A DNA stretch of 64,000 nucleotides from an uncultured Actinomycetes bacterium. GTDB lineage: Bacteria; Actinomycetota; UBA4738; HRBIN12. Both the position numbers and the translations under genes were made by a program. Numbering within the stretch: the first letter of the stretch is position 1; each line of letters starts with the position of its first letter. The stretch covers positions 1,856,001-1,920,000 of the forward strand of contig OY969934.1 in the NCBI GenBank assembly GCA_963704725.1, given 5' to 3'. Below are positions 18,589 to 63,920 of the stretch, one piece after another. The notes beneath the pieces were generated by a model that had not been told where the DNA came from, searched no databases, and was given only the letters and a program-made list of their open reading frames with translations.

Positions 18589-18672
18589 TGCCGGGAGCGG
18601 GGCTCGAACCCGCACGTGCTTTCGCACAACGCCTTTTGAGGGCGCCGCCTCAGCCAATTGGGCTATCCCGGC
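18589..18672 (-). tRNA. tRNA-Leu(CAA)
   Basis: Acceptor stem GCCGGGA/TCCCGGC, anticodon arm GCGCC-CTCAAAA-GGCGT, long variable arm, TTCGAGC T-loop; CCA not encoded. Confidence 0.95.
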
Positions 18673-21797: not shown

Positions 21798-21830
21798 GAA
21801 GGGGTCCGCGCCCGGTGCGCGGGCCCCTTC
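21798..21830 (+). terminator. Stem-loop after the binding-protein gene
   Basis: GAAGGGGTCCGCGC...GCGCGGGCCCCTTC inverted repeat. Confidence 0.55.
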
Positions 21831-21848
21831 CGCATGAAGGGGGGTCGG

Positions 21849-23000
21849 ATGGCTGTCGTGGAGGCCGAGGCGGGGCTCCTTCGGGAGGCCCCACCCGATA
21901 CGCGGGGGCGGAGCTCGCCGATCTCCGCCACGTCCCTGTGGCTCGGCATCCTTGCGATCGGCGCCGTGCTCGGCGGCCTGGTCTTCGTCCAGGTGAACTT
22001 CGCCCTCTCCGCGCGGCAGCTCACACGGGAGTGCGTCGACCTCGGCCTGACCTCCGACATCACCGGTGCCGTCGGCGTCTGCAACATCGTCGAGGGCCTC
22101 AGGTCGTCGGAGCAGACGGCCCTCCTCTACGGGGGGATCGTCCTGGGGATCGCCGGGATGGCCGTCGGATGGGGGACGTACAAGCGGATGGATACCCGGC
22201 GGCGGCGCGAGCAGGCCGTGACGGGCGCGATCCTCGGCCTGCAGGCAGTCGTCATCGCCATCGTCCTCCTGTTGTTCCGCGCCGGGCGGCCGGACCTGTT
22301 CGCGAAACACTTCCTGAACTTCGACGTGCTCGGGTCCTACTTCCCCAGGTCCTTCTTCGCGGCGATGAAGAACACGATCTTCCTGGCCTTCGTCGGGGAG
22401 TTCGGGGGCATCGTGATCGGCCTCGCCCTCGCCGTCCTGGCGATCTCGCAGCGCAAGGCTGCCCGCGCCCCGGCGCGCGCATACATCAACTTCTTCCGGG
22501 GGACGCCGCTCATCTGGCAGCTCGCCACCACCTACTTCCTCCTGCTGTTCATGGGCCTCAAGACCTCGGCGTTCACGGTGGCGATGATGGTCTTCGCGCT
22601 CAACACCGGGGCCTACGCGGCCGAGGTCTTCCGGGCCGGCATCCAGTCGATCGAGCGCGGGCAGATCGAGGCGGCGCGGTCGCTCGGGATGTCGTGGTTC
22701 CAGGCGATGCGCTTCGCGATCGTGCCGCAGGCGATCCGTCGCGTGATCCCGCCGCTCATGAACGAGTTCGTGATCCTGATCAAGGACACCGCCCTGGTGA
22801 TCGTCCTCGGGCTGTTGGAGTCCCAGTACGAGCTGTTCACCTGGGCCCGTCAGGGCGTCTCCGACACCTTCAACGCGACGTTCTTCACCGCGACGGCCCT
22901 CGGCTACCTCGCGGTGACCTTGCCGCTGATCCGCCTGGTGAACTCGGTCGAGAAGCGCCTGCGGAGCGGCCTCGTGAGCATCGCCGGAGCGGCTCAATGA
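21849..23000 (+). CDS. Polar amino acid ABC permease (His/Glu/Gln/Arg/opine family)
   Basis: [32 protein letters not shown] and PQAIRR. Confidence 0.9.
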
Positions 23001-23758
23001 GCGCGGCATCGGTGGCACCGAGCAAGGTCGAGCCCCTGATCCGGATGGAGGGCATCCACAAGTGGTTCGAGGACAACCACGTGCTCCGTGGCGTTGACCT
23101 CGCGCTCGAGCCCGGCGAGGTTCAGGTCATCATCGGCCCCTCCGGCGGGGGGAAGTCGACTCTGTTGCGGTGCACGAACCTTCTCGAGCGGCCCACGCTG
23201 GGCAGCGTGTGGTTCGAGGGCACAGACATCACCGACATCCGCGTGAACCTGAACGACGTCCGGACCCGGATGGGGATCGTCTTCCAGCAGTTCAACCTGT
23301 TCCCCCACATGACCGTGATGCGGAACATCACGATCGCGTTGCAGAAGGTCATGAGGATCGACGAGAAGGAAGCCCGGGAGCGGGCGGTCGAGCAGCTCCA
23401 GCGGGTCGGGCTCGAGCAGAAGGCCGACGCCTTTCCGGGCCAGCTCTCGGGCGGGCAGCAGCAGCGGGTCGCGATCGCCCGGGCGTTGGCCATGAAGCCC
23501 CGTCTCATGCTGTTCGACGAGGTCACCTCGGCCCTGGACCCCGAGCTCGTGGGGGAGGTCCTGGCCGTCATGCGCCAGCTCGCCGACGAGGGCATGACGA
23601 TGATGGTCGTCACGCACGAGATGGGGTTCGCGCGGGAGGTCGGGACCTGGATGGTCTTCGTCGACGGCGGCGTGATCGCCGAGAAGGGGCGCCCGAAGGA
23701 GATGTTCGCCAACCCTGAGACCGAGCGGCTCCGGCAGTTCTTCAGCAAGGTCCTGTGA
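22997..23758 (+). CDS. Polar amino acid ABC ATPase (GlnQ-like)
   Basis: [35 protein letters not shown] and VTHEMGFA. Confidence 0.92.
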
Positions 23759-23762
23759 CCCT

Positions 23763-24134
23763 GTGCCCGTGACCCGACGCTGGCTGCCGATCGCTGCCGT
23801 GCTCGTCGCGGTGGCCTCGCTCCTGGTCTCGCTCGTGCTGGCCGGCGAGGAGCCCGCTCCGTACGTGATCACGGCGATCAACTACCACTTCCACGACGCG
23901 CACCCGACCTTCCCCATCGCCCCGGGGCGCGACCTGGTGGTCAAGAACGCCAGCCAGAACCTCCACAACGTGACGATCCCGGCGCTGAACTACTCGGAGG
24001 ACGTCAAGCCGGGCGAGCAGCTCGTGATCCAGGACATCGCGTCGCAGTTCGGGGCACCGGGCAGATACACGTTCGTCTGCCTGTATCACCAGGATCGCGG
24101 CATGAGCGGCACGCTCATCATCGCGGGAGGGTGA
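23763..24134 (+). CDS. Exported cupredoxin-domain protein
   Basis: Signal/TM segment, HNV and PGRYTFVCLYHQDRGMSG (type-1 Cu ligands H, C, H, M). Confidence 0.8.
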   Translation: MPVTRRWLPIAAVLVAVASLLVSLVLAGEEPAPYVITAINYHFHDAHPTFPIAPGRDLVVKNASQNLHNVTIPALNYSEDVKPGEQLVIQDIASQFGAPGRYTFVCLYHQDRGMSGTLIIAGG

Positions 24135-24158
24135 GGCGAGGGGCCTCGGGAAGAGATC

Positions 24159-24384
24159 GACGGGCCGAGGAGCCTTTGGAGCCGCTCACGCCTTCCCCAT
24201 ACGCGAGCGTTGTCTACTCGGTTCCTCGGCCCGTCAAAAGGTGGCCCCAAGCGACCTCTGAGCCCGGTCGGCCGGCGTATCCTCCGCCTCGGTGGTCCAT
24301 CCCTTGGGGCTTGCGCCCCTCGGTGTGGCCCTCCTTCTCGGAGGCACTACCCGCCTCCCGGTCCCGTGTCGGCCGCTTGGGACC
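24159..24384 (-). ncRNA. Candidate rod-like structured ncRNA (6S/Ms1-like architecture) with a 3' hairpin
   Basis: 14-bp closing stem (24371-24384 with 24243-24256), nested stems symmetric about a GGGGC-GCAA-GCCCC apex, 13-bp hairpin at 24159-24235, and an upstream TTGACA-N17-TACTGT promoter. Confidence 0.6.
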
Positions 24385-24391
24385 GGAGCGA

Positions 24392-24420
24392 ACAGTAGCG
24401 ACGTGCCCTGAGCGTGTCAA
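24392..24420 (-). promoter_or_regulatory. Sigma-A promoter TTGACA-N17-TACTGT driving the candidate ncRNA
   Basis: Perfect -35 (24420-24415), TAnnnT -10 (24397-24392), 17-nt spacer; the closing stem begins 8 nt downstream. Confidence 0.7.
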
Positions 24421-24576
24421 CGCGTTGAAACGCCTGCACCGCAGGCATGACGGATCGATCCCGCAGGTAGCCCCTTGCGTCGCTGCGATGAAGAAAGAGT
24501 GACAAACGGAACGCGTTCCCGATGCGGCGACTGGACCGCCGATCATTCGGGTCGGAACCGTCCCGGGCGTCGGGAG

Positions 24577-24598
24577 CGTCGGCGGATCGCGCTAGGAT
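24577..24598 (+). promoter_or_regulatory. PafBC-like promoter CGTCGG-N10-TAGGAT upstream of polA
   Basis: One mismatch to TGTCGG, exact 10-nt spacer; GTG follows 8 nt later. Confidence 0.5.
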
Positions 24599-24606
24599 CA
24601 GCCGAC

Positions 24607-27249
24607 GTGACCCCTCGCACGATGGACCCGCCGAAACGACTGTTCCTCCTCGACGGTCACAGCCTCAGCTATCGCGCGTTCTTCGCGCTGCCGACGAGCC
24701 TCGCGACGACGACCGGGCAGGTGACGAACGCCGTCTACGGGTTCACGTCGATGCTGATCAAGCTCCTCGCGGAGGAGCGGCCCGATCTCATCGCCGTCGC
24801 GTTCGACGTGGGCAAGCCGACCGCGCGGCTGGAACGGTACGCCGAGTACAAGGCCGGCCGCCCCGAGACGCCGGACGAGTTCCGGCAGCAGCTGGGCCTG
24901 ATCGTGGAGGTGCTCGAGACCCTGCGGATCCCGGTGATCGGGATCGAGGGACACGAGGCGGACGACGCGATCGGGACGCTCGCGGTCCAGGCCCACGGAC
25001 AGGGCATCGACGTCGTCATCGTGACGGCCGACCGAGACTTCTTCCAGCTCGTCCGGCCCGGCATCACGGTGATGTTCAACGTCAAGGGTATCTCCGACAT
25101 CCGGCGGTACGACGTGCAGGCGGTGACGGAGCGATTCGGGCTCCCGCCGGAGAAGTACCTCGAATACGTCGCGCTCAAGGGCGACGCGTCGGACAACATC
25201 CCCGGCGTCCCCGGCGTCGGGGAGAAGACCGCGTCCAAGCTCGTCCAGGACTTCGGGTCGGTCGAAGAGCTCCTGCGCCGCACCGACGAGCTCAAGGGCA
25301 AGCTGAAGGACTCCATCGAGGCGGCGGGGGAGCAGCTCGCGCTCAACAAGGAGCTCGCCCAGCTCAAGCTCGACGTCGAGCTCCCGGTGCGCCCCGAGGA
25401 CTGCGTGATGGGGGAGTGGGACGTCGAGGCCGTCCGGCGCCTGTTCACGTCGCTCGAGTTCCGCACCCTGTTCGAGCGGCTGGAGGAGGTCGGTCGGAGC
25501 GCCAAGCCGGCCGTCGAGGTGGCCGAGCTCGACCTGCGGGAGGCGGCCGTCCCGGAGGTCGCGGCGCTGCTCGAGGCCGACACGCCGAAGGCGCTCCGCA
25601 TCGACGCCGACGGCGGGCGGATCGTGGGCCTGGCGGTCTCGGTCGGCGGCGGGCAGGCGGCGTACGCGCCCGTCAAGAAGGCGTCGGACGTCGCGAAGAC
25701 TCTGGCCGGCCCGGCGCCGAAGTGGACCCACGACGCCAAGGACACCGAGACGGCCGCGCTCGCGGCGGGGGGGAGTCTCGGCGGGGTTGCCTTCGACACG
25801 ATGCTGGCCGGGTACCTGCTCGACCCGGCGGCCCCGAGCTTCGCCCTCGGGGTCCTGTGCGAGACCTACCTCGGGACCGACGTCCTCGGCTCGACGGTCG
25901 AGGAGACCGAGGGCCAGCTCTTCGGCGAGGCGTGGCGTCCCTGGGCGGCGGAGGCGGCCGCCGTGGCCCTGCTGGCTCCGGTGATCGCCGAGCGGGTGGA
26001 GAAGGCGGGGCTGCGCCATCTTCTCGACGACGTCGAGCTGCCGCTGTCCTCGGTCCTGGCGCGCATGCAGGCCGCGGGGGTCGCCCTCGACGTCGAGTAC
26101 CTCGACGAGATGGCCGAGGGCGTCCGGGACAAGATGGCGACGCTCCGCGAGGAGATCTACCGCCACGCCGGCGAGGAGTTCAACCTCAACTCCCCGCCGC
26201 AGCTCCGGACGATCCTGTACGAGAAGCTCCGGCTCTCGCCGGGCAAGAAGACCTCGAAGGGCCAGCTCTCCACGGACGCCTCGGTGCTCGAGAAGCTCCG
26301 CGACGCCCATCCCATCGTCGACGCCCTGCTGTCGTGGCGCGAGCTCGACAAGCTGAACTCCACCTACCTGGAGGCCCTGCCGCGTCAGGTCGATCCGCGC
26401 GACGGGCGGGTGCACACGACGTTCAACCAGACCGGCGCCGCCACGGGACGGCTGTCGAGCTCCAACCCCAACCTCCAGAACATCCCCGTTCGCGGGGAGC
26501 TCGGCCGCCAGATCCGCCGCGCGTTCGTGCCGGGGGCGAAGGACCAGGTGCTCCTCGTCGCCGACTACTCGCAGATCGAGCTCCGGATCCTGGCGCACCT
26601 CGCAGGGGACGAGGGATTGAAGGCGGCGTTCGAGTCGGGGGTGGACATCCACACGGCGACCTCGGCGAGGGTGTTCGGGCTGCCGGAGGACCAGGTCGAC
26701 CCGGCCACGCGCTCCCGGGCCAAGGCGATCAACTACGGGCTGGCCTACGGGATGAACGCGTGGGGCCTCGCCTCGCGCCTGGAGATCACGCCGGACGAGG
26801 CGCAGGAGTTCATCGACGCGTACTTCGCGAGCTTCCCGCAGATCCGCGACTTCCTCGACCGACAGGTGGCCCGGGCCGCCGCCGAGGGTTTCACCGAGAC
26901 CCTCCTCGGCCGCCGTCGCTACATCCCCGAGCTCCAGGCGGCCAATCCAAGGGTTCGCGACATGGGCCGGCGGATGGCGCTCAACGCGCCGATCCAGGGG
27001 AGCGCGGCCGACGTGTTCAAGCTCGGCATGCTCCGGGTGGACGAGGCGCTCCGAGGGTCCACGCTCGGGTGCCGGATGCTGCTCACGGTGCACGACGAGC
27101 TCGTCTTCGAGGTGGACGGGAGGGATCTGGCGGAGGCCTCCGCCCTGGTGAAGCGCGAGATGGAGTCGGCGTACGACCTCGACGTACCCCTCCGCGCGGA
27201 CCTCGGATCCGGCCCCAACTGGGCCGAGGCCGTCCCGGCGGGCCACTAG
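24607..27249 (+). CDS. polA: DNA polymerase I
   Basis: LLDGHSLSYRAF, GDASDNIPGVPGVGEKTA, TGRLSSSNPNLQNIP, ADYSQIELR and VHDELVFE; start GTG 24607 or ATG 24622. Confidence 0.97.
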   Translation: MTPRTMDPPKRLFLLDGHSLSYRAFFALPTSLATTTGQVTNAVYGFTSMLIKLLAEERPDLIAVAFDVGKPTARLERYAEYKAGRPETPDEFRQQLGLIVEVLETLRIPVIGIEGHEADDAIGTLAVQAHGQGIDVVIVTADRDFFQLVRPGITVMFNVKGISDIRRYDVQAVTERFGLPPEKYLEYVALKGDASDNIPGVPGVGEKTASKLVQDFGSVEELLRRTDELKGKLKDSIEAAGEQLALNKELAQLKLDVELPVRPEDCVMGEWDVEAVRRLFTSLEFRTLFERLEEVGRSAKPAVEVAELDLREAAVPEVAALLEADTPKALRIDADGGRIVGLAVSVGGGQAAYAPVKKASDVAKTLAGPAPKWTHDAKDTETAALAAGGSLGGVAFDTMLAGYLLDPAAPSFALGVLCETYLGTDVLGSTVEETEGQLFGEAWRPWAAEAAAVALLAPVIAERVEKAGLRHLLDDVELPLSSVLARMQAAGVALDVEYLDEMAEGVRDKMATLREEIYRHAGEEFNLNSPPQLRTILYEKLRLSPGKKTSKGQLSTDASVLEKLRDAHPIVDALLSWRELDKLNSTYLEALPRQVDPRDGRVHTTFNQTGAATGRLSSSNPNLQNIPVRGELGRQIRRAFVPGAKDQVLLVADYSQIELRILAHLAGDEGLKAAFESGVDIHTATSARVFGLPEDQVDPATRSRAKAINYGLAYGMNAWGLASRLEITPDEAQEFIDAYFASFPQIRDFLDRQVARAAAEGFTETLLGRRRYIPELQAANPRVRDMGRRMALNAPIQGSAADVFKLGMLRVDEALRGSTLGCRMLLTVHDELVFEVDGRDLAEASALVKREMESAYDLDVPLRADLGSGPNWAEAVPAGH

Positions 27250-63833: not shown

Positions 63834-63920
63834 GTCGGAGTGGCGGAACTTGGTAGACGCGCTAGGTTGAGGGCCTAGTGACCTTCATTGGTCGTGGGGG
63901 TTCAAATCCCCCCTCCGACA
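63834..63920 (+). tRNA. tRNA-Leu(GAG)
   Basis: Acceptor stem GTCGGAG/CTCCGAC, anticodon arm CTAGG-TTGAGGG-CCTAG, long variable arm, TTCAAAT T-loop. Confidence 0.95.

What the first reader, a model, noticed from the sequence alone, without database searches (positions are those of the whole stretch)
24159..24420. Candidate new rod-shaped ncRNA (6S/Ms1-like) with a near-consensus promoter, divergent from polA
Seen in the sequence: on the minus strand, TTGACA-N17-TACTGT points into a region with no credible ORF. The predicted 5' end GGUCCCAAGCGGCC (24384-24371) pairs with GGUCGCUUGGGGCC (24256-24243) over 14 bp, including 2 G-U pairs that work only on this strand, followed by ACCUUUU. Nested stems GGGACCGG/CCGGGCUC, GGCG/CGCC and CCUCCG/CGGAGG (24344-24339 with 24286-24281), a purine-rich internal bubble (AGAAGGA/ACCGAGG) and an apical GGGGC-GCAA-GCCCC GNRA hairpin all centre near 24313. 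This gives one rod of about 150 nt. A second 13-bp hairpin (24235-24159) follows. Established: 6S RNA and actinobacterial Ms1 are abundant RNA-polymerase-binding RNAs with a long stem and central bubble. Inference: this is a 6S/Ms1-like or undescribed RNA; I recognise neither its sequence nor this synteny.
Basis: partly seen in the sequence, partly recalled or inferred. Interest (0 to 1): 0.8.

Follow-up and report, generated by a model that had tools for sequence, protein, structure and literature searches.

The report
Conserved unknown small RNA beside polA
A real small RNA gene that no catalogue lists sits next to polA and is kept in almost every genome of an uncultured group of soil actinobacteria, but what it does is still unknown and it does not look like 6S or Ms1 RNA.

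Summary
On the minus strand there is TTGACA-N17-TACTGT (24420-24392), then a 14-bp closing helix (24384-24371 with 24256-24243), a ~140-nt rod with a GCAA tip, ACCUUUU, and a second hairpin (24235-24159). It is not chance: fold z = -6.2. In 97 homologues 98.2% of cells pair and 15 pairs change on both sides (0 of 500 shuffles reach this). The promoter is kept in 110 of 111 homologues.

The 6S/Ms1 reading is not supported. No Rfam family matches. The rod interior is the least conserved part and has no central bubble (0 of 97). Ms1 synteny is absent.

The conserved core is the "second hairpin". It is a terminator-like stem with an invariant internal loop (GAGUAGAnAA / GCUCCAAA) and an invariant apical loop (AUGGGGAAG).

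A model of it hits 147 of 151 genomes of the class, usually twice, and 50 of 151 across the phylum. A second, shorter paralogue lies 108 kb away.

Best reading: a new family of independently transcribed small RNAs. The hairpin is probably a protein-recognition module and the rod a lineage-specific 5' extension. Function is inferred, not shown.

The parts
24490..24505 (-). Conserved upstream DNA box TTGTCACTCTTTCTTC, about 118 nt before the RNA 5' end. Possibly a regulator site; function unknown.
   Evidence: found within 2 mismatches in 78 of 118 unique homologous upstream regions, mostly at -118/-117; also lies just upstream of the -35 box of the paralogue in 3 of 10 relatives.
24462..24471 (-). 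Conserved upstream box GCTACCTGCG.
   Evidence: the 8-mer CTACCTGC occurs in 62 of 118 unique upstream regions.
24433..24445 (-). Short inverted repeat (CCTGCGGTGCAGG here; TTGCGGCGCAA in most relatives), about 15 nt upstream of the -35 box.
   Evidence: seen in the printed upstream alignment rows; not counted.
24415..24420 (-). -35 box TTGACA.
   Evidence: TTGACN in 110 of 111 unique homologues (TTGACA in 97).
24392..24397 (-). -10 box TACTGT (TANNNT type), 17-nt spacer.
   Evidence: TANNNT in 110 of 111; spacer 17 nt in 86 and 18 nt in 24; the box ends 6-8 nt before GGTCCC.
24243..24384 (-). 5' rod. Closing helix P1 (24384-24371 with 24256-24243), a variable irregular stem, and an apical GCAA tetraloop (24314-24311). 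The predicted transcription start is at about 24385/24384.
   Evidence: P1: 13 pairs, 99.4% of cells paired; column 15/204 is GU 35, AU 31, GC 31; 91 of 97 homologues fold as one unbranched hairpin; the tips are GNRA in 65 and YNCG in 15 of those 91.
24236..24242 (-). Linker ACCUUUU between the two hairpins. It may act as a weak internal terminator tail.
   Evidence: the consensus is CCACCTTTTGA; the sequence varies among relatives.
24159..24235 (-). Conserved core hairpin:
- outer stem 24235-24220 with 24174-24159
- internal loop GAGUAGACAA (24219-24210) opposite GCUCCAAA (24182-24175)
- inner stem 24209-24201 with 24191-24183
- apical loop AUGGGGAAG (24200-24192)
   Evidence: this part is 87-90% identical across the families of the order; the outer stem has 16 pairs, 11 with changes on both sides; the inner stem has 9 pairs; the loop nucleotides are invariant. 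Models R1 and R2.
24145..24158 (-). Pyrimidine-rich 3' tail (GAUCUCUUCCCGAG). The transcript probably ends here.
   Evidence: in 111 homologues the 12 nt after the hairpin are 37% T. 61 of 111 have at least 4 T in the first 8 nt.

Best explanation
This is an independent small-RNA gene of about 235 nt on the minus strand, running from about 24384 to about 24150. It has its own housekeeping-type promoter and ends at a terminator-like hairpin. It belongs to a previously uncatalogued RNA family.

The functional core of that family is the 3' hairpin. The hairpin holds two sets of invariant unpaired nucleotides at a fixed distance from each other:
- an asymmetric internal loop, GAGUAGAnAA opposite (G)nnCCAAA
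- in this paralogue, a G-rich apical loop, AUGGGGAAG

Most likely (inferred) these loops form a recognition surface for a protein partner, so the RNA would act in trans as part of an RNP or as a protein-titrating RNA. The AGUA-opposite-AA part resembles a bulged-G (loop E / sarcin-ricin type) module; that resemblance is recalled, not tested.

It puts the 5' end into a helix and probably stabilises the RNA.

Shown: the gene, its strand, its structure, its conservation and its paralogy. Inferred: transcript ends, action in trans, and protein binding.

My odds:
- real independent structured RNA gene: about 0.9
- protein-binding as the mode of action: about 0.4
For: Structure and strand.
- z = -6.2 on the minus strand against -2.5 on the plus strand.
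- On 97 distinct homologues, 41 pairs are 98.2% paired, against 93.2 +/- 0.2 in shuffles (0 of 500 reach it) and 29-46% when the partner is slid.
- 15 pairs change on both sides, in 214 cells.
- G-U pairs are kept in nearly all rows: column 20/199 GU in 96 of 97, column 255/265 UG in 97 of 97. These would be A-C on the other strand.

Own promoter.
- TTGACN-N17/18-TANNNT occurs in 110 of 111 unique homologues and ends 6-8 nt before the first paired base.

Core hairpin.
- It is the best-conserved part across families.
- Its loops are invariant in 83 distinct sequences, while its outer stem covaries.
- More distant relatives consist of a promoter, this hairpin and a U-run only.

Distribution.
- R1 hits 147 of 151 sampled genomes of the class (100 of 101 high-quality ones; 56 of 56 genera), mostly twice.
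- R2 hits 50 of 151 genomes across the phylum.
- The own genome holds exactly two members.
- The paralogue keeps the internal loop but not the G-rich loop.

Trans rather than cis.
- The downstream gene is convergent in this class: ABC transporter in 117 of 147 loci, all convergent. The same holds in another family (5 of 5).
- Neighbours elsewhere differ.

Against a base-pairing seed.
- The complement of the apical loop is not enriched in the genome.
- There is no complement of 8 nt or more in the rRNA operon.

Expression hint.
- Contigs from 4 of 4 RNA-library runs (4 studies) cover the core hairpin of relatives.
Against: - There is no transcript evidence for this genome. The metatranscriptome contigs come from relatives, may include DNA, and cannot show ends or strand. 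One 362-nt contig runs past both predicted ends.
- The generic scanner called neither a promoter nor a terminator here. The window's own 3' tail is weakly U-rich.
- No protein partner is identified, and no neighbouring gene is shared across lineages apart from polA and the ABC transporter.
- Invariant exposed loops are also what a base-pairing seed looks like.
- The bulged-G reading rests on recalled motif rules, and one position (C opposite A) departs from the usual form.
- The loci counted for synteny include the same contigs fetched twice by two routes, and the genomes are related, so those counts are not independent.
Confidence: 0.45

Rival explanations
1. It is a base-pairing regulatory sRNA. 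The invariant G-rich apical loop (AUGGGGAAG) would be a seed that pairs with C/U-rich stretches of target mRNAs. The internal loop and hairpin would serve only as scaffold and terminator.
For: - The loop is unpaired and invariant in 83 of 83 distinct sequences of the class. It is kept as GGGGAAG in other families.
- The RNA has its own promoter and terminator, like trans-encoded sRNAs.
- From recall: actinobacterial 6C RNA uses conserved C-rich loops in this way.
Against: - The complement of the loop is not enriched. The 10-mer CCTTCCCCAT occurs 7 times in 6.9 Mb of both strands, about the chance level, and only 2 of those are intergenic.
- The paralogue and several lineages replace the loop with a plain GC stem yet keep the internal loop exactly. 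The deepest constraint is therefore not on the putative seed.
- The rRNA operon has no complement of 8 nt or more.
- Pairing with the tail of the genome's own 16S gene is only -8.0 kcal/mol, against -20.7 for a full Shine-Dalgarno complement.
Confidence: 0.25
2. It is an RNA-polymerase-binding RNA that fills the 6S/Ms1 niche. It would bind core or holoenzyme and tune transcription in stationary phase.
For: - The genome has no 6S match at E<=10.
- The RNA is near-universal in its class, like a housekeeping RNA.
- RNAP-associated RNAs of actinobacteria are diverse in form: Ms1, the 516-nt CoRP, and the ~85-nt scr0792 (passages of PMC11077062). Lack of likeness to 6S therefore does not exclude RNAP binding.
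Against: - No Rfam 6S or Ms1 hit at E<=10.
- The rod has no central bubble (0 of 97 with at least 8 nt on both sides), and its interior is unconstrained in sequence and length.
- Distant relatives lack the rod altogether.
- Ms1 synteny is absent.
- Nothing here bears on RNAP directly.
Confidence: 0.1
3. It is a cis-acting element rather than a gene of its own. It could be a bidirectional terminator or 3'-UTR structure of the convergent cupredoxin/ABC operon. Or it could be a leader with a terminator-embedded sensor controlling a downstream gene.
For: - The hairpin lies 25 nt beyond the cupredoxin stop codon at 24134.
- In one other family a co-directional thioesterase gene follows the hairpin in 3 of 4 loci checked. 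In another family a DUF4193 gene follows in 2 of 2.
- Terminator-embedded aptamers exist, e.g. the HMP-PP riboswitch (title and abstract of PMC6478431 in the listing).
Against: - A conserved promoter reads into it on the minus strand (110 of 111).
- The G-U pairs fit only the minus strand.
- On the plus strand the hairpin is followed by A-rich, not U-rich, sequence.
- In this class, and in a second family, no co-directional gene follows it.
- Downstream genes differ between lineages.
Confidence: 0.05

Closest known systems
6S RNA (Rfam RF00013)
   Same: It is a small, abundant-type non-coding RNA with its own promoter. Part of it is a long irregular helix closed by the 5' end.
   Different: - No model match.
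- No central bubble.
- The rod interior is unconstrained and missing in distant relatives.
- The conserved part is a separate 3' hairpin.
Ms1 RNA of mycobacteria and Streptomyces (PMC9130861, passages seen)
   Same: It is an actinobacterial structured sRNA found where 6S is not detected, and it is conserved with its synteny.
   Different: - Ms1 is described there as about 300 nt, with a central bubble plus two short end hairpins, flanked by HAD-IB hydrolase and oxidoreductase genes.
- This RNA is about 235 nt, has no bubble, and lies between polA and an ABC transporter/cupredoxin.
- No Rfam hit at E<=10; per that paper, Rfam holds Ms1.
- The families that carry this RNA are not named in that paper.
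scr0792, an ~85-nt RNAP-associated sRNA of S. coelicolor (PMC11077062, passage seen)
   Same: The size is close to the minimal form of this family (promoter, about 85-nt hairpin, U-run).
   Different: - Its sequence and structure are in a supplement that I could not see.
- My models found nothing in the three genomes of the largest-genome family sampled (f27, 0 of 3). Whether that family is Streptomyces is not known to me.
- No relation is shown.
6C RNA (Rfam RF01066)
   Same: It is an actinobacterial sRNA whose most conserved nucleotides are homopolymer-like hairpin loops (recalled).
   Different: - Its loops are C-rich, whereas here the loop is G-rich.
- No model match in the window or anywhere in the genome.
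- The architecture differs.
Bulged-G (loop E / sarcin-ricin) RNA module
   Same: The internal loop has AGUA on one strand opposite AA(A) on the other, next to Watson-Crick pairs. This is the sequence signature that I recall for this module.
   Different: - The position that is usually G is an invariant C here.
- No 3D test was possible. This is a recalled resemblance only.

Membership tests
6S RNA | Match to the Rfam covariance model RF00013 | tested here: not met
   No hit at the gathering score in the window. None at E<=10 in 23900-24700. None at E<=10 in the whole genome, while the control rang in 7 of 14 named genomes.
6S RNA | Large single-stranded central bubble within a long helix | tested here: not met
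   the largest interior loop of the rod has a median of 6 nt in total. Both sides reach 6 nt in 1 of 97 homologues and 8 nt in 0 of 97.
6S RNA | Long closing helix formed by the 5' and 3' ends of the RNA | tested here: inconclusive
   The 5' end does pair in a 13-14-bp helix. Its partner lies about 95 nt upstream of the predicted 3' end, however, and the RNA continues into a second hairpin.
6S RNA | Binds the sigma-A/sigma-70 holoenzyme and templates product RNA | not testable with these tools
   Needs biochemistry.
Ms1 RNA | Synteny with HAD-IB hydrolase and oxidoreductase genes (PMC9130861) | tested here: not met
   The flanks are polA (ATG at 24622), cupredoxin (PF13473) and an ABC transporter (PF00005).
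Ms1 RNA | Sequence/structure match to known Ms1 | tested here: not met
   No Rfam family hit at E<=10. The paper states that Rfam holds Ms1. I had no Ms1 sequence for a direct comparison.
Ms1 RNA | Binds the RNAP core | not testable with these tools
   Needs RIP or pull-down.
SRP RNA (small bacterial) | Match to RF00169; one per genome | tested here: not met
   The genome's SRP RNA is elsewhere, at G000:C1:294777-294876, 76.4 bits. There is no hit in this region.
Y RNA / YrlA | Ro (TROVE) protein gene present in the genome | tested here: not met
   PF05731 was not found in the genome. The control rang in 2 of 14 named genomes.
Trans-encoded bacterial sRNA gene (general kind) | Own promoter, conserved in position | tested here: met
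   110 of 111 unique homologues. The generic scanner did not call it.
Trans-encoded bacterial sRNA gene (general kind) | Terminator hairpin with a U-rich tail | tested here: inconclusive
   The hairpin is strongly supported. The tail is T-enriched on average (37%), and 61 of 111 have at least 4 T in 8 nt. The window's own tail is weak, and the scanner found no terminator.
Trans-encoded bacterial sRNA gene (general kind) | A discrete transcript is detected | tested here: inconclusive
   Contigs of 4 RNA-library runs cover the core hairpin of relatives. Contigs cannot show ends, strand or level, and DNA carry-over is possible.

The most novel reading that the evidence does not exclude
The two paralogous hairpin RNAs are the RNA subunits or ligands of an unrecognised housekeeping RNP. 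That RNP would be universal in an uncultured class of soil Actinomycetota and shared with several other deep lineages of the phylum.

One possibility is that this is the missing RNA-polymerase-associated RNA of these lineages. It would then work through a loop-E-like protein-recognition module rather than an open-promoter mimic.
Probability: 0.12. Interest if true: 0.85.

Novelty: new member of a known kind. Interest (0 to 1): 0.62.

Why it matters
These lineages are abundant in soil, almost entirely uncultured, and have no experimentally studied RNAs. Three features set this RNA apart from ordinary sRNAs, which turn over quickly:
- it is kept in 147 of 151 sampled genomes of a class
- it is kept in two paralogues
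- its loops stay invariant across several classes

That pattern is usually seen in RNAs that work with a conserved protein machine.

The finding gives a ready covariance model for annotation. It gives a compact (~85 nt) target for structure work. It also gives a concrete candidate to test for the idea, stated in the RIP-seq paper, that every bacterium has its own abundant RNAP-associated RNA.

The eye-catching rod is decoration and the small hairpin is the business end.

Tried and rejected
- **Repeat or mobile element.** The 271-nt query has one full copy in the genome; the rest are chance fragments with E>0.4. No match in plasmids or phages.
- **Coding region.** The ORFs have no Pfam match.
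- **SRP RNA.** It is found elsewhere in the genome.
- **Y RNA.** There is no Ro gene.
- **Partner or sponge of 6C RNA.** The genome has no 6C.
- **Mimic of a Shine-Dalgarno site.** The duplex with the tail of the genome's own 16S gene is -8.0 kcal/mol, against -20.7 for a full complement.
- **rRNA target.** Only two 7-mers in the rRNA operon are complementary to the loop.
- **mRNA target enrichment.** None was seen with a crude GC3-based gene map. That map is rough, with 2872 ORFs covering 78% of the genome.
- **A shared module carried by many sRNAs.** Only two members exist in the genome; the next hits have E 0.66 and 1.9.
- **Pseudoknots.** I considered loop with linker, loop with 3' tail, and loop with internal loop from the alignments. 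The partner sequences vary while the loop does not, so I dropped them without a formal count.
- **Mini-ORF in the apical region (AUG GGG AAG GCG UGA).** The stop is lost wherever the stem has C instead of U.
- **Literature.** Three word searches gave nothing on this RNA. The 6 papers matching the motif strings are unrelated primers or genes. Supplements were closed, so the sequences of scr0792 and CoRP could not be compared.
- **Read laying.** No contig covered the flanks or the rod at 80% likeness, apart from the 30 nt at 24373-24402 in one X13 contig. Those parts are poorly conserved, so this says nothing.
- **Generic promoter/terminator scan.** It found no sites.

Full report
**What is in the window.** Read on the minus strand, the intergenic stretch lies between two genes. 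On one side is a cupredoxin gene (23763-24134, +, PF13473). On the other is polA (+, ATG at 24622). The stretch holds, in order:
- TTGACA (24420-24415), 17 nt, TACTGT (24397-24392)
- 7 nt later, GGUCCCAAGCGGCC (24384-24371), which pairs with GGUCGCUUGGGGCC (24256-24243)
- between these two strands, an irregular stem tipped by GGGGC-GCAA-GCCCC
- ACCUUUU
- a second hairpin, 24235-24159, followed by GAUCUCUUCCC

The rod folds to -95.1 kcal/mol (z = -6.19; 0 of 200 shuffles as good). The other strand gives z = -2.46. Both hairpins together give z = -6.17. The generic promoter/terminator scanner called nothing here, because the -10 box matches TATAAT at only 3 of 6 positions and the tail is weak. 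The ORFs across the region have no Pfam match.

**Is it known?** No Rfam 15 family reaches its gathering score in the window except two tRNAs. At E<=10 on 23900-24700 only three chance hits to eukaryotic or archaeal families appear. The genome has no 6S and no 6C. Its SRP RNA is elsewhere, and it has no Ro protein gene. The stretch is single-copy at full length and absent from plasmid and phage collections. Three literature searches, one of them for the motif strings themselves, found nothing on it.

**Conservation.**
- BLAST of 271 nt found a match in 39 of 41 related genomes, counting G000. The two without a match are 69% and 81% complete.
- The full length aligns within the family. Across the eight families of the order, the part that stays 87-90% identical is the second hairpin together with the 3' strand of the closing helix (query 165-270).
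All are in unnamed Actinomycetota, Actinomycetes or 'uncultured bacterium' MAGs.

**Structure support.** I aligned 97 distinct full-length homologues. These had length class 285-330 including flanks, and two loci from unpublished genomes were left out.
- RNAalifold recovered the closing helix P1, the tip of the rod and both stems of the 3' hairpin.
- Counting 41 pairs on this MAFFT alignment gave 98.2% of 3966 cells paired. Shuffles gave 93.2 +/- 0.2 (0 of 500 as high), and sliding the partner gave 29-46%.
- 15 pairs carry changes on both sides, against 9.5 +/- 1.2 in shuffles (0 of 500), in 214 cells.
- The outer stem of the 3' hairpin carries most of this, with 11 of its 16 pairs changing on both sides. 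An example is column 233/285: AU 49, GC 19, CG 11, UG 5, UA 4.
- P1 never changes on both sides against its commonest pair, but column 15/204 is GU 35, AU 31, GC 31.
- Near-fixed G-U pairs (96 of 97 and 97 of 97) fit only the minus strand.
- Kin are not independent, so the shuffle figures overstate the support. The slid controls keep relatedness and still fail.

**The rod.** Its interior aligns poorly and varies in length, from 123 to 160 nt P1-to-P1 in this set. It is longer in rows that I left out and far shorter in two genera. Even so, 91 of 97 fold as one unbranched hairpin, with a GNRA tip in 65 and a YNCG tip in 15 of those 91. Its largest interior loop has a median of 6 nt in total. In no homologue does it reach 8 nt on both sides. 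So the shape is kept, but nothing in it looks like a 6S bubble or a specific site.

**The core.** Three stretches in the 3' hairpin are unpaired and invariant in 83 distinct sequences:
- (C/U)GAGUAGAnAA on the 5' side of an internal loop
- GnUCCAAA on the 3' side of that loop
- UAUGGGGAAGG at the tip, nine pairs above the internal loop

A covariance model of this part (R1) hit 147 of 151 sampled genomes of the class. That is 100 of 101 high-quality genomes and 56 of 56 genera. The four misses are 79-90% complete.

R1 also hit 41 of 151 genomes sampled across the phylum. A broader model (R2) hit 50 of 151. It found all or most genomes of four other families (f14 10/10, f18 9/10, f31 5/5, f9 8/10). 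It found none in several well-sampled families (f16 0/10, f19 0/10, f21 0/9, f20 0/7, f33 0/6, f27 0/3). These tallies include genomes flagged unpublished.

**Relatives show what is essential.**
- In one family the whole gene is a promoter, the hairpin and a U7 run (about 95 nt).
- In another family a small 5' hairpin replaces the rod.
- In lower-GC families the G-rich tip is replaced by a short GC stem, while GAGUAGARAACG...CGGnnCCAAAGG stays.
- One family (f9) keeps the P1-like 5' part but has a changed internal loop.

The common denominator is the hairpin with its internal loop and a U-rich tail.

**A paralogue.** R1 found a second hit in the same genome, at G000:C1:1988665-1988749, 108 kb from the finding and outside the window. 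It has:
- its own TTGACA-N18-TAGCGT
- a short variable 5' hairpin
- the same internal loop, but a plain GC tip
- a U-rich tail

No Rfam match was found for it. It lies between an amidohydrolase gene and an Lnt-glycosyltransferase fusion gene. Ten copies from the order align well. With R2 at E<=10 the genome holds just these two members. The outer stem of the paralogue (GGACCCAAG...) resembles P1 of the finding (GGUCCCAAG...). The rod may therefore be a decayed tandem copy of the hairpin. This was noticed, not tested.

**Promoter, ends, neighbours.**
- TTGACN-N17/18-TANNNT is present in 110 of 111 unique homologues and ends 6-8 nt before GGUCCC. The RNA should therefore start at about 24385/24384, directly in P1.
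- The 12 nt after the hairpin are 37% T in a genome of 71% G+C.
- polA lies divergently upstream in 98 of 147 loci, of which 129 had at least 800 nt upstream.
- An ABC-transporter gene lies convergently downstream in 117 of 147 loci. The 147 include contigs fetched twice by two routes.
- The same polA-RNA-ABC order holds in 5 of 5 loci of family f14.
- Elsewhere the neighbours differ: thioesterase in 3, GNAT in 1, DUF4193 in 2, amine oxidase in 1.
- Upstream of the promoter three further DNA boxes are conserved.

**Expression.** No run holds this genome's sequence well. All shares were 0.27 or less. Contigs from 4 of 4 metatranscriptome runs (4 studies), laid at 80% likeness, cover 24149-24256, the core hairpin. 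Their variants are the ones seen in the family, at 24212 and 24181. One 362-nt contig also covers 24373-24402 and bridges the rod with 111 other letters. This shows that relatives' sequence is present in RNA libraries. It does not show ends, strand or level.

**Mechanism.** I commit to a trans-acting RNA whose hairpin is a protein-recognition module, at about 0.4. The reasons are as follows.
- The deepest constraint is on unpaired nucleotides of an internal loop, shared by both paralogues and by several classes.
- The spacing between internal loop and tip is fixed.
- No complementary target signal appears.
- No gene association is shared across lineages.

A base-pairing seed in the G-rich loop remains a serious rival (0.25). 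RNAP binding (0.1) cannot be excluded, because known RNAP-associated RNAs of actinobacteria are so unlike each other. However, every 6S or Ms1 feature that I could test failed. A cis role is unlikely (0.05).

**Verdict.** This is a real RNA gene with very strong support and a new RNA family. Function remains inferred.

Noticed in passing
G000:C1:1988665-1988749 (+), outside the window; locus L168:2612-2760: A second, shorter paralogue of the RNA. It has its own promoter, a small 5' hairpin and the same internal loop, but a plain GC tip instead of the G-rich loop. It is conserved in 10 of 10 relatives examined, and most genomes of the class give two hits.
   Followed up: partly
window 24490-24505, 24462-24471, 24433-24445 (minus strand): Three conserved DNA boxes lie upstream of the RNA's promoter: TTGTCACTCTTTCTTC, GCTACCTGCG and a short inverted repeat. 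The first box also sits just upstream of the paralogue's -35 in 3 of 10 relatives. They may be regulator sites; I recognised no known motif.
   Followed up: partly
window 24499-24622 (+): The polA reading frame stays open upstream of the ATG at 24622. A GTG at 24499 is in frame (41 codons upstream) and lies inside the first conserved box on the other strand. The stretch between them is poorly conserved, so an N-terminal extension seems unlikely.
   Followed up: no
window 24243-24384 versus L168:2685-2745: The closing helix of the rod (GGUCCCAAGCGG...) resembles the outer stem of the paralogue's hairpin (GGACCCAAGAGG...). This suggests the rod arose as a tandem duplicate of the hairpin and then lost the loop motifs.
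   Followed up: no
window 23763-24134 (+) and 21815-23758 (+): A small cupredoxin-like gene (PF13473) follows a fused ABC transporter gene (PF00005). The pair, convergent with the RNA, is kept with it in most relatives.
   Followed up: partly
window 18589-18672 (-) and 63834-63920 (+): Two tRNA genes with long variable arms (Rfam tRNA, 52.5 and 52.3 bits).
   Followed up: no
loci L179, L180 (family f9): Relatives in one other family keep the P1-like 5' part (GGUCGCUUGGGAC...). They have a changed internal loop and a ~25-nt insertion at the tip, and a DUF4193 gene follows them.
   Followed up: no
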